DNA of 63,780 bases, the filler included, from Craspedostauros australis (Eukaryota), in assembly GCA_030167865.1 (NCBI GenBank). It is 14 parts of 14 records of this genome, joined end to end, with 100 filler letters (N's around TTAATTAATTAA, not from the genome) between each part and the next. Parts side by side here need not be neighbours in the genome. Positions count along the whole stretch, not along the records: positions 47,485 to 56,990 come from JALAGF010006114.1; 13 more parts are not named here. The stretch is one strand, 5' to 3'. Position numbers and translations under genes: made by a program. How positions within the stretch are numbered: the stretch's first letter is position 1; every line of letters begins with the position of its first letter. Below, one piece after another: positions 53,206 to 53,820 of the stretch. A model generated the notes under the pieces. It ran no database searches and was not told where the DNA came from. It was given only the letters and a program-made list of their open reading frames with translations.

Positions 53206-53284
53206 TAGCTTGTCTCTTTCTCGTCGCTCATGCAGCGTCTCTCGCTCTTCGATCTCTCCTTGCACAGGGCTTCCCTGGTGCTAA

Positions 53285-53296
53285 CGTTTATAAACG
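53285..53296 (-). promoter_or_regulatory. Palindrome CGTTTATAAACG at the primer-binding-site position of family B
   Basis: Abuts the LTR end; identical to the family A palindrome. Confidence 0.85.
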
Positions 53297-53820
53297 TGTT
53301 GGAAGGCTCCGCGCACGGAGAATCGGTAGTAGTCAACACTCTTTCTCAAAGTGTTTCTGTTACTGTTACTGATGTTGCTATTGATTGTTGATGAGCGAGC
53401 ATGGGGAATGAGATGATCAAGATGCTCTCTTGATCCATCTCTTCCTTGCTCTCATTNNNNNNNNNNNNNNNNNNNNNNNNNNNNNNNNNNNNNNNNNNNN
53501 NNNNNNNNNNNNNNNNNNNNNNNNNNNNNNNNNNNNNNNNNNNNNNNNNNNNNNNNNNNNNNNNNNNNNNNNNNNNNNACATATTTCATTCCTGTAGACC
53601 TGGTAGGTAAGGCCTTGAGGTGACGTCACATGTGGTGGATACTGTGGTATCTGCTGGTATCGCGGTATCCTGTCATCGTAGTATCGCAGTATCCTTGTGG
53701 TATCGAGGTGGCATCGCTGTGACGTCATAGTTTTGGGTCGTGATTCCGCCACCAAATATTCTGGATGATGGCGCGCAAGTGTGACTGATGCATACACATC
53801 CGAGTACACACATTCCAACA
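53297..53820 (-). repeat. 5' LTR of family B (TGTTGGAA...TTCCAACA)
   Basis: 8-bp terminal inverted repeats with TG...CA ends; starts exactly where the family C ORF loses homology; contains an N gap. Confidence 0.88.

What the first reader, a model, noticed from the sequence alone, without database searches (positions are those of the whole stretch)
53265..53322. Copia retrotransposons with a palindrome instead of a tRNA primer-binding site (family B)
Seen: the LTR ends ...TTCCAACA and is followed with no spacer by CGTTTATAAACG, a perfect palindrome (14 bp including flanks). There is no TGG-type PBS and no GGTTATGGGCCC-type half-tRNA PBS. On the minus strand the site is flanked by a U5 hairpin (CTCCG-TGCG-CGGAG) and a downstream hairpin (CAGGG-AAG-CCCTG). 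Established: nearly all copia elements prime minus-strand synthesis with a host tRNA or tRNA fragment, and self-priming is characterised in Tf1-type gypsy elements. Inference: the palindrome is a self-primer or a kissing-dimer site where one genome copy primes the other. I recall Repbase annotations proposing palindrome self-priming for Thalassiosira copia families; this needs checking, and I know of no mechanistic test.
Basis: partly seen in the sequence, partly recalled or inferred. Interest (0 to 1): 0.8.

Follow-up and report, generated by a model that had tools for sequence, protein, structure and literature searches.

The report
Palindrome replaces tRNA primer site in copia elements
Two diverged copia-type retrotransposons in this probably diatom scaffold, and relatives in environmental DNA, carry the same 12-base palindrome exactly where a tRNA primer site should be, which points to an unusual and still unproven way of starting reverse transcription.

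Summary
CGTTTATAAACG lies at 53285-53296 (minus strand), directly after the 5' LTR end ...CCAACA of a Ty1/copia element. It occurs once more in the window (27024-27035), at the same place in a second element with only 54% protein identity. An 18-mer scan of metagenomes gave 10 loci. Four of them (three families, 25-34% identity) have copia gag/pol, with the motif at the LTR/leader junction, and PPT-TGT... marks the LTR start. No TGG lies within 19 nt in 7 of 7 elements, and 0 of 7 have a Tf1-like second complementary segment. The two "flanking hairpins" are better read as the two strands of one U5-leader stem that holds the palindrome in an apical loop. Prior art exists: fungal GalEa copia lack a PBS and carry a different LTR-abutting palindrome, the "Conserved Hairpin Site" (PMC5445492). 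Our elements lack that clade's sequence, its CHSeq2 partner and its protein motifs. Best reading (about 0.4): a PBS equivalent through which two genomic RNAs pair and one primes the other. The host tRNA set was not available and no variant palindromes could be sampled. I rate it a new variant of a known kind.

The parts
53285..53296 (-). 12-nt perfect palindrome CGTTTATAAACG at the PBS position of element el1 (14-nt palindrome 53284-53297 with the LTR's last A and the following T)
53297..53820 (-). el1 5' LTR, broken by an N gap at 53457-53578. It starts TGTTGGAATG (53811-53820) and ends CCTTCCAACA (53297-53306). It is inserted into element el3.
53300..53326 (-). U5 strand of the predicted U5-leader stem. 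It contains the local hairpin CTCCG-TGCG-CGGAG (53307-53320).
53249..53276 (-). Leader strand of the predicted U5-leader stem. It overlaps the local hairpin CAGGG-AAG-CCCTG (53265-53277).
48381..53105 (-). el1 open frame of 1574 aa with gag (Retrotran_gag_2), zf-CCHC, Pol_BBD and the integrase SH3-like domain
47437..48276 (-). el1 RT fragment (RVT_2), in another frame and cut by the scaffold gap at 47385-47484
27024..27035 (-). Second copy of the palindrome, at the PBS position of element el2
27036..27464 (-). el2 5' LTR, 3' part only; the rest is lost in the N gap at 27465-27559. It ends CTTGCCAACA.
27039..27065 (-). el2 U5 strand of the predicted U5-leader stem
26989..27015 (-). el2 leader strand of the predicted U5-leader stem
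21383..26518 (-). el2 gag-PR-IN-RT reading frame, with an in-frame stop at 23165-23167 and an N gap at 21456-21505
53673..57038 (-). el3, a third related copia (53% aa identity to el1). Its 5' end is lost in a gap and its coding similarity ends at about 53832, next to the el1 LTR start.

Best explanation
The palindrome is the primer-binding-site equivalent of a group of Ty1/copia retrotransposons that do not use a tRNA 3' end. The group includes two families in this probably diatom scaffold and at least three more in environmental contigs. Proposed mechanism: in the genomic RNA the last bases of U5 pair with the leader 6-8 nt past the palindrome. This holds AACA + CGUUUAUAAACG + about 8 nt as an apical loop. 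Two packaged RNAs pair through the palindrome (12 bp). One strand is cut at the 3' edge of the palindrome, by the element's RNase H as in Tf1 or by a host nuclease. Its 3'-OH is then extended into U5 of the partner, giving minus-strand strong-stop DNA. Dimerisation and priming would therefore use one site. Shown: position, conservation, absence of a tRNA-type PBS, absence of a Tf1-type partner, and the predicted stem. Inferred: intermolecular pairing, cleavage and priming.
For: (1) Zero-spacer position after the LTR's CA in two elements with 54% aa identity. A 22-nt identical block, CCAACACGTTTATAAACG.TAG, sits in otherwise poorly conserved non-coding DNA. (2) The 18-mer scan of metagenomes gave 10 loci. 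Four (L114, L115, L120, L121; three families; 25-34% aa identity to el1) carry copia gag/pol with the motif about 90-150 nt upstream of gag. In L114 and L115/L121 the order is pol, PPT (ACAGGAAGGG), TGT...CCAACA, palindrome. Reverse transcription fixes the U5 end at the primer's 3' end, so the primer must pair with the palindrome's first bases. This step is an inference from established LTR-element biology. (3) No TGG within 19 nt of the LTR end in 7 of 7. (4) No second segment of 8 nt or more complementary to the palindrome in the LTR or leader in 0 of 7; 7-mers occur in 3 of 7, at chance level. (5) The conserved block ends exactly at the palindrome's 3' edge, where the next base is T, A, T, T, C, A, T. 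A random 12-mer is a palindrome 1 time in 4096. (6) The 12-mer duplex is -12.4 kcal/mol against -0.1 for its own hairpin. (7) Cognate U5 x leader duplexes beat non-cognate ones: 19-57 of 5040 permutations reach the observed mean over four window sizes, and 77 of 5040. The inner helix ends 3 nt before the LTR end and resumes 8 nt after the palindrome in el1, el2 and L115 (2 and 6 nt in L117). Fold z-scores are -2.9, -2.3, +0.2, -1.4, -2.4, -1.9, -2.4. (8) Precedent: fungal GalEa copia have a different palindrome at the same place and no PBS (PMC5445492: section 10, Discussion passages and two supplementary tables).
Against: No compensatory (palindrome-keeping) variant was seen. The external search required the exact 18-mer, so only el1 versus el2 is an independent test of conservation. 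Absolute identity across elements with 25-54% aa identity and 34-52% locus G+C is also what a conserved host RNA primer would produce. The host tRNA and small-RNA set was not available. The stem is weak or absent in some elements: L114 has fold z +0.17, and the cognate duplexes of L114, L115, L118 and L120 rank 3rd to 7th of 7. L117 and L118 have no coding evidence. Both window copies are defective or truncated, and no 3' LTR is seen. A palindromic PBS would also let plus-strand strong-stop DNA fold on itself, which is a cost with no explanation. Nothing here shows cleavage or priming.
Confidence: 0.4

Rival explanations
1. A host small RNA (an unusual tRNA fragment, an organellar tRNA or another conserved RNA) containing CGUUUAUAAACG is the primer, and the palindromy is incidental or reflects a hairpin in that RNA.
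For: The 12-mer is identical in elements with 25-54% aa identity from loci of 34-52% G+C. This is the pattern seen for tRNA PBSs, for example TGGTAGCAGAGC, which is strictly conserved in metazoan GalEa (PMC5445492). The PBS is recopied from the primer in every cycle (established biology).
Against: The conserved block is exactly a perfect palindrome (1 in 4096 for a random 12-mer) and stops at its edge. A second copia clade has a different palindrome at the same place. By reasoning only, not tested: a 12-nt even-centred palindrome with 8 consecutive A/U does not fit an anticodon, T or D arm of a cloverleaf tRNA. No tRNA is in the window and there is no Rfam match at either site.
Confidence: 0.17
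2. Intramolecular snap-back priming. The RNA is cut just after the palindrome, the 5' fragment folds the palindrome into its own hairpin, and the paired 3' end is extended into U5 of the same molecule.
For: It has the same positional logic as the dimer model. Monomer folds draw the palindrome as a 4-5 bp hairpin in 5 of 7 elements.
Against: The hairpin is only -0.1 kcal/mol (-1.8 for the 14-mer), against -12.4 and -15.8 for the duplexes. A 4-nt loop with a 4-bp A/U-rich stem is a poor primer-template.
Confidence: 0.1
3. The palindrome is only a dimerisation or packaging signal (DIS-like kissing loop), and priming uses something else.
For: The palindrome is predicted to sit in an apical loop closed by a U5-leader stem, like retroviral DIS hairpins (recalled knowledge; also discussed in PMC5445492).
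Against: The LTR ends exactly at its first base, so DNA synthesis must start there. No other PBS candidate is conserved: TGG at offset 19 occurs in L114 and L117 only and is absent in L115, the close relative of L114.
Confidence: 0.1
4. It acts at the DNA or RNA-processing level rather than through pairing. TTTATAAA is a TATA-box on both strands and UAUAAA is a poly(A)-signal-like hexamer, so the motif could be an internal promoter or a processing signal.
For: The motif content itself. Recalled knowledge of the TATA and poly(A) hexamers.
Against: This does not explain the conserved CG...CG ends, the perfect 12-nt symmetry, the invariant zero spacing to the LTR end, or the lack of any PBS.
Confidence: 0.05
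5. Tf1-type self-priming: the 5' end of the transcript folds back on the PBS.
For: There is no tRNA PBS, and a U5-leader structure is present.
Against: 0 of 7 elements have a second segment of 8 nt or more matching the palindrome from -456 (or the locus start, -298 for L114 and -362 for L120) to +162, including the complete LTRs of L114, L115 and L120. The 7-mers in 3 of 7 are at chance level. The el1 and el2 LTRs are incomplete and the transcription starts are unknown.
Confidence: 0.03

Closest known systems
[quoted passage not shown] 2017, PMC5445492)
   Same: These are Copia elements without a tRNA PBS. A short, strongly conserved palindrome starts at or includes the last A of the 5' LTR. 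The LTRs are TGT...CA. The mechanism is unknown, and the authors also excluded a Tf1-like partner.
   Different: The sequence and length differ: A|CTGATCAGT or A|CTAATTAGT (10 nt) against CGTTTATAAACG (12 nt, or 14 nt with its flanks in 4 of 7). The fungal CHS pairs with a downstream CHSeq2 carrying a fixed A/A mismatch, whereas here 6 of 7 elements have no such partner and the palindrome is instead enclosed by a U5-leader stem. The fungal protein motifs (C2C4C4H, KSRLVI, QTDD, CQPEA) are absent here. The host group is different.
Tf1/Tf2-type self-priming (Ty3/gypsy, fission yeast and relatives)
   Same: There is no tRNA primer. The element's own RNA is cleaved to give the primer, and a U5-leader structure surrounds the site.
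   Different: Tf1 pairs the first 11 nt of the transcript with a non-palindromic PBS within one molecule. No second complementary segment exists here, and the superfamily is different.
Retroviral dimer initiation site (kissing loop) and the Ty1 PAL sequences
   Same: A palindrome is displayed in a stem-loop of the 5' leader and can pair two genomic RNAs.
   Different: In retroviruses and Ty1 the palindrome exists in addition to a tRNA PBS and is shorter. Here it occupies the PBS position itself. The retroviral and Ty1 facts are recalled or seen only in a search listing (PMC6844567) and in the Discussion passages of PMC5445492.
Half-tRNA (internal initiator-tRNA fragment) priming of Drosophila copia and Ty5
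   Same: These are Copia-superfamily elements whose PBS does not begin with TGG.
   Different: That PBS type is complementary to an internal stretch of initiator tRNA and is not palindromic. The tRNA facts are recalled, not tested.

Membership tests
Ty1/copia (Pseudoviridae) LTR retrotransposon | gag of copia type, CCHC knuckle and protease, with integrase placed before an RVT_2 reverse transcriptase | tested here: met
   Pfam hits: Retrotran_gag_2, zf-CCHC, Pol_BBD and SH3_retrovirus in el1, el2 and el3; RVT_2 downstream in el1 and el2; the order is confirmed by tblastn.
Ty1/copia (Pseudoviridae) LTR retrotransposon | LTRs with TG...CA termini and a short inverted repeat, and a PPT before the 3' LTR | tested here: inconclusive
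   For el1 the termini TGTTGGAATG...CCTTCCAACA are seen. No 3' LTR or PPT of el1 or el2 lies in the window. PPT followed by TGT is seen in relatives L114 and L115/L121.
Canonical tRNA 3'-end PBS | TGG... complementary to a tRNA 3' end within a few nt of the LTR | tested here: not met
   No TGG within 19 nt of the LTR end in 7 of 7 elements.
Fungal GalEa CHS elements | Palindrome that abuts the 5' LTR and includes its last A, with no tRNA PBS | tested here: met
   The 12-nt palindrome abuts the LTR in 7 of 7 (required by the search in 5 of them). It extends to A...T in 4 of 7.
Fungal GalEa CHS elements | CHSeq1 = CTGATCAGT or CTAATTAGT, or a close derivative | tested here: not met
   The sequence here is CGTTTATAAACG, compared with the supplementary table.
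Fungal GalEa CHS elements | CHSeq2 a few to 41 nt downstream, complementary to CHSeq1 with one fixed A/A mismatch | tested here: not met
   No downstream match of 7 nt or more in 6 of 7. Only the unverified L118 has CGTTTAT, 8 nt after the palindrome. Imperfect partners with a mismatch were not searched for systematically.
Fungal GalEa CHS elements | Clade protein motifs C2C4C4H, KSRLVI/V, QTDD and CQPEA | tested here: not met
   Ours have CHNCGKYGHWSANC (C2C4H4C), R(T/A)RLVACGY, YVDD or WVDD, SRPDI and ADLFTK, compared. No phylogeny with GalEa or CoDi references was possible because no reference sequences are held.
Tf1-type self-priming elements | PBS complementary to the first ~11 nt of the transcript | tested here: not met
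   0 of 7 have a second segment of 8 nt or more. Transcription starts are unknown, and the LTRs of el1 and el2 are incomplete.
Retroviral-type DIS kissing loop (works-like comparison only) | Palindrome exposed in the apical loop of a leader stem-loop | tested here: inconclusive
   Predicted in el1, el2, L115 and L117, and weaker in L114 and L120. These are thermodynamic predictions only, and covariation rests on few sequences (2 of 14 pairs changed on both sides, from 2 sequences).
Diatom CoDi copia lineages | Phylogenetic placement with the CoDi reference RT/RNase H sequences | not testable with these tools
   No CoDi reference sequences are held. Maumus et al. 2009 (PMC2806351) was searched by term only and has 0 occurrences of 'primer binding', 'palindrom' and 'tRNA'. 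The host looks like a diatom only from a trypsin-like gene whose best named hits are diatoms at 37-46% identity.

The most novel reading that the evidence does not exclude
A widespread protist lineage of Ty1/copia elements has given up host tRNA primers. It couples genome dimerisation to initiation of reverse transcription: a 12-nt palindromic site in an apical loop pairs two genomic RNAs, and one is cleaved to prime DNA synthesis on the other. This trans-self-priming mode has not been shown for any LTR retroelement. It would also explain the unexplained palindromic site of fungal GalEa elements.
Probability: 0.3. Interest if true: 0.85.

Novelty: new variant of a known kind. Interest (0 to 1): 0.6.

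Why it matters
Nearly all LTR retroelements borrow a host tRNA to start reverse transcription. The known exceptions are Tf1-type self-priming and the unexplained palindromic site of fungal GalEa. A second copia lineage with a different, longer palindrome at exactly the same position makes palindromy itself the likely functional feature. The palindrome is conserved letter for letter across elements as distant as 25% protein identity. It also makes a concrete, testable prediction: two elements with complementary half-site mutations should rescue each other. If confirmed, it would link RNA dimerisation and priming. It would also remove a host dependency of these elements, and it would affect LTR-element annotation tools that require a tRNA PBS and so miss or misclassify such elements.

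Tried and rejected
(1) LTR pairs in the window. A self-BLAST of both 5' LTR pieces found only themselves; the scaffold has many N gaps and 13 linker joins. (2) No whole genome is held and there are no tRNA genes in the window, so the host-tRNA test could not be run. (3) The viral contigs 14-mer scan gave 113 loci, all chance phage hits; the 3 with partial flank matches were unrelated. The 18-mer gave 0. (4) Protein-anchored, unbiased retrieval of relatives failed in viral contigs and genome contigs. The first alignment was too divergent for the tool. (5) The genome contigs 18-mer scan gave 4 hits, all in large bacterial contigs without copia similarity. Together with 4 of the 10 metagenome loci (L116, L119, L122, L123) these are the chance background. 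(6) I looked for a "family A" palindrome at another LTR end. Of 82 maximal palindromes of 10 nt or more, one looked promising, TTCAACA|GTGGATCCAC at 2029 and 2801, but it lies inside a piggyBac-like transposase reading frame. (7) The 5' end of the RVT_2 element at 36183-42644 showed no recognisable LTR or PBS. (8) Rfam gave nothing relevant at either site. (9) RNAalifold on el1 and el2 alone is hampered by indels and recovers only short helices. Homodimer cofolds of the whole region are uninformative, because any hairpin can form an extended duplex. (10) Earlier findings of this scan: four look-ups returned nothing. (11) Literature: searches found no report of this motif or of a palindromic PBS in diatom copia in the held library. 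Repbase Reports are not in that library.

Full report
1. What is in the sequence

The window is a gappy scaffold with many N runs and 13 N44-TTAATTAATTAA-N44 joins. It is rich in transposable elements.

Three related Ty1/copia elements lie on the minus strand:
- el1: open frame 48381-53105 with gag, CCHC, protease-region and integrase domains. Its RVT_2 fragment (47437-48276) is in another frame and is cut by a gap.
- el2: 21383-26518, with one in-frame stop at 23165-23167.
- el3: 53673-57038, whose 5' end is lost in a gap.

el1 shares 54% and 53% amino-acid identity with el2 and el3.

On the minus strand el1 reads ...CTCCGTGCGCGGAGCCTTCCAACA|CGTTTATAAACG|TTAGCACCAGGGAAGCCCTG.... The coordinates are:
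- palindrome: 53285-53296
- local U5 hairpin: 53307-53320
- local leader hairpin: 53265-53277

The 12-mer occurs exactly twice in the window, allowing one mismatch, and no shuffle of 100 gave a match. The second copy (27024-27035) is at the same place in el2...CTTGCCAACA|CGTTTATAAACG|ATAG.... In an alignment of the two non-coding regions, the block CCAACACGTTTATAAACG.TAG is the longest identical run.

2. Is CCAACA really the LTR end?

No 3' LTR of either element is in the window, so the boundary needs other support.

For el1, the expected inverted terminal repeat TGTTGGAATG is at 53811-53820. It lies directly after the point where el3's coding similarity stops, at about 53832. So el1 is a nested insertion into el3, and its 5' LTR spans 53297-53820, including a 122-N gap.

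Stronger support comes from outside the window. A scan of metagenome contigs for CCAACACGTTTATAAACG gave 10 loci:
- L114, L115, L120 and L121 encode copia gag/pol by Pfam and by tblastn. L115 and L121 are the same family. Identity to el1 is 34%, 33% and 25%. The motif lies 87 to 147 nt upstream of the gag frame.
- L117 and L118 have similar U5 ends but no coding evidence. I count them as unverified.
- L116, L119, L122 and L123 are bacterial chance hits.
- All 4 hits in prokaryotic genomes are also chance hits.

In L114 and L115/L121 the contigs read: pol, then ACAGGAAGGG (polypurine tract), then TGTTAGG.. or TGTCGG.., then 256 or 319 nt, then ..ATCCAACA, then the palindrome, then the leader and gag. 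Their total lengths (about 4.7-5.2 kb) fit an element assembled with its two LTRs collapsed into one. L120 starts its LTR with TGTTGGAAG.

The palindrome therefore sits with zero spacer where the PBS of an LTR element must be.

3. What it is not

- No TGG occurs within 19 nt of the LTR end in 7 of 7 elements. The TGG at offset 19 in L114 and L117 is absent from L115, the close relative of L114.
- No Rfam family matches either site.
- A Tf1-type arrangement needs a second segment complementary to the PBS near the transcript start. From -456 (or the start of the locus: -298 for L114, -362 for L120) to +162, 0 of 7 elements have a second match of 8 nt or more. The 7-mers seen in 3 of 7 are at the frequency of shuffled sequence, 0.13-0.42 per element. 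This includes the complete LTRs of L114, L115 and L120.
- A GalEa-type CHSeq2 partner is absent in 6 of 7. Only the unverified L118 has CGTTTAT, 8 nt downstream.

4. The structure around it

Unrestricted folding pairs 53300-53326 (U5) with 53249-53276 (leader). Free energies (kcal/mol) are:
- el1: -38.9 for the region, against -25.1 when only local hairpins are allowed.
- el2: -36.8, against -17.0.

The other elements have different sequences but a similar arrangement:
- L115: GGCTAGAC/GTCTAGCC plus ATCC/GGAT
- L117: ACTTAGC/GCTAAGT and more
- L120: CAACAC/GTGTTG

The inner helix ends 3 nt before the LTR end and resumes 8 nt after the palindrome in el1, el2 and L115 (2 and 6 nt in L117). This leaves an apical loop of about 23 nt that carries the palindrome.

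As a control I paired each U5 with each leader. Cognate pairs are more stable than non-cognate ones. 19, 46, 55 and 57 of 5040 permutations reach the observed mean for four window sizes, and 77 of 5040 in the first trial.

The signal comes mainly from el1, el2 and L117. The cognate pairs of L114, L115, L118 and L120 rank 3rd to 7th of 7.

Fold z-scores against 200 shuffles are -2.86, -2.33, +0.17, -1.36, -2.38, -1.92 and -2.41.

With two sequences, RNAalifold recovers the closing helix, with one pair changed on both sides. The stem is therefore supported but not proven.

The 12-mer alone forms a duplex of -12.4 kcal/mol, against -0.1 for its own hairpin.

5. Mechanism

The U5/PBS boundary of an LTR element is set by the 3' end of the minus-strand primer (established biology). 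So whatever primes these elements pairs with the first bases of the palindrome.

The conserved block stops exactly at the palindrome's 3' edge. Perfect 12-nt symmetry is a 1-in-4096 property of a random 12-mer. A second copia clade has another palindrome at the same place. I therefore favour pairing of the site with itself.

Because the duplex is far more stable than the hairpin, pairing between the two packaged RNAs is more likely than a snap-back. One strand would be cut at the palindrome's 3' edge and extended into the partner's U5. The pairing, the cut and the extension are all inferred.

The main weakness is that identical sequence across very diverged elements is also what a conserved host RNA primer would give. 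I could test neither the host RNA set nor unbiased relatives for variant palindromes.

6. Comparison with what is known

Donnart et al. 2017 (PMC5445492) was read as follows: abstract, section 10 in full, Discussion passages, and two supplementary spreadsheets. They describe fungal GalEa copia that lack a PBS. These elements carry CTGATCAGT or CTAATTAGT, which is palindromic with the LTR's last A, usually followed by a complementary CHSeq2 with a fixed A/A mismatch. The authors could fit no known priming model to it.

Our elements share the principle but differ in four ways:
- They do not have that sequence.
- They do not have the CHSeq2 partner.
- They do not have the fungal clade's protein motifs. 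Ours have C2C4H4C, R(T/A)RLVACGY, YVDD/WVDD, SRPDI and ADLFTK.
- The host is probably a diatom. This rests only on a trypsin-like gene whose best named relatives are diatoms at 37-46% identity.

Polyprotein relatives in the large protein collection reach at most 41% identity and mostly sit on ~5 kb contigs.

Maumus et al. 2009 on diatom CoDi elements was searched by term only and does not mention a PBS, palindromes or tRNA. Other searches found no report of this motif or of palindromic PBSs in diatom copia. PMC3601003, PMC6934838 and PMC8220671 were seen as passages only. Repbase could not be consulted.

7. Verdict

This is a real, conserved, non-tRNA PBS-position element and a new variant of a kind first described in fungal GalEa. 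How it primes remains open. Interest is 0.6.

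Noticed in passing
window 53801-53850: el1 is a nested insertion. Its LTR start TGTTGGAATG (53811-53820) directly follows the end of el3's coding similarity (about 53832). The rest of el3 is not found downstream of el1 because of scaffold gaps.
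   Followed up: partly
window 53100-53235 (minus strand): The start of the el1 reading frame carries a roughly triplicated segment of about 60 nt (ATGAGC...CCCTCTCAC.C..GTGATCGAGGACGAGAC). The first ATG after the leader opens only a 8-codon frame, and the long frame starts at the third copy.
   Followed up: no
window 23165-23167; L115 (oriented 2441-2443): Single in-frame stop codons: between integrase and RT in el2, and inside gag (between the capsid-like part and the CCHC knuckle) in L115. They could be decay or programmed readthrough; this was not examined.
   Followed up: no
window 37686-37725: A perfect 40-nt palindrome (ACCACTATGCTACTATGTGTACACATAGTAGCATAGTGGT), next to a gap and a 253-nt duplicated block (37416-37668 and 37803-38055), just upstream of an RVT_2 reading frame.
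   Followed up: no
window 40148-40163 and 43316-43331: Two copies, in opposite orientation, of a repeat centred on the 16-nt palindrome CCACACAATTGTGTGG with TGGATCCA-type flanks. This may be a terminal or sub-terminal repeat of another element.
   Followed up: no
window 1149-2393 (+) and 61746-63350 (-): piggyBac-like transposase frames (Pfam DDE_Tnp_1_7). The first is preceded by an imperfect 30-nt coding repeat (GGCACGGCCAGCAACAAT...).
   Followed up: no
window 8318-12661 (-): A 1447-aa frame with an RVT_1 domain, in a region of 59-64% G+C that is much higher than its surroundings. This is a different kind of retroelement.
   Followed up: no
window 18507-20747 (+): A second el2-like copy (88-92% aa identity to el2, residues 567-1219) on the opposite strand, tail to tail with el2. 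Both are truncated by scaffold joins.
   Followed up: partly
window 31084-32325 (+): A trypsin-like serine protease frame. It is the only clear host-type gene examined, and its best named relatives are diatom proteins.
   Followed up: partly
L114 (29-42) and L115 (oriented about 1420-1433): The polypurine tract CAACAGGAAGGG followed by TGT is conserved between two environmental families with different LTRs. In L115/L121 the pol frame runs through it and 22 codons into the LTR.
   Followed up: partly
window, 13 sites (e.g. 2905-3004, 20748-20847, 57035-57046): N44-TTAATTAATTAA-N44 linkers mark scaffold joins. Duplicated blocks flank several 50-N gaps (for example 19583-19814 and 19865-20096 at 100% identity) and look like assembly artefacts.
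   Followed up: no
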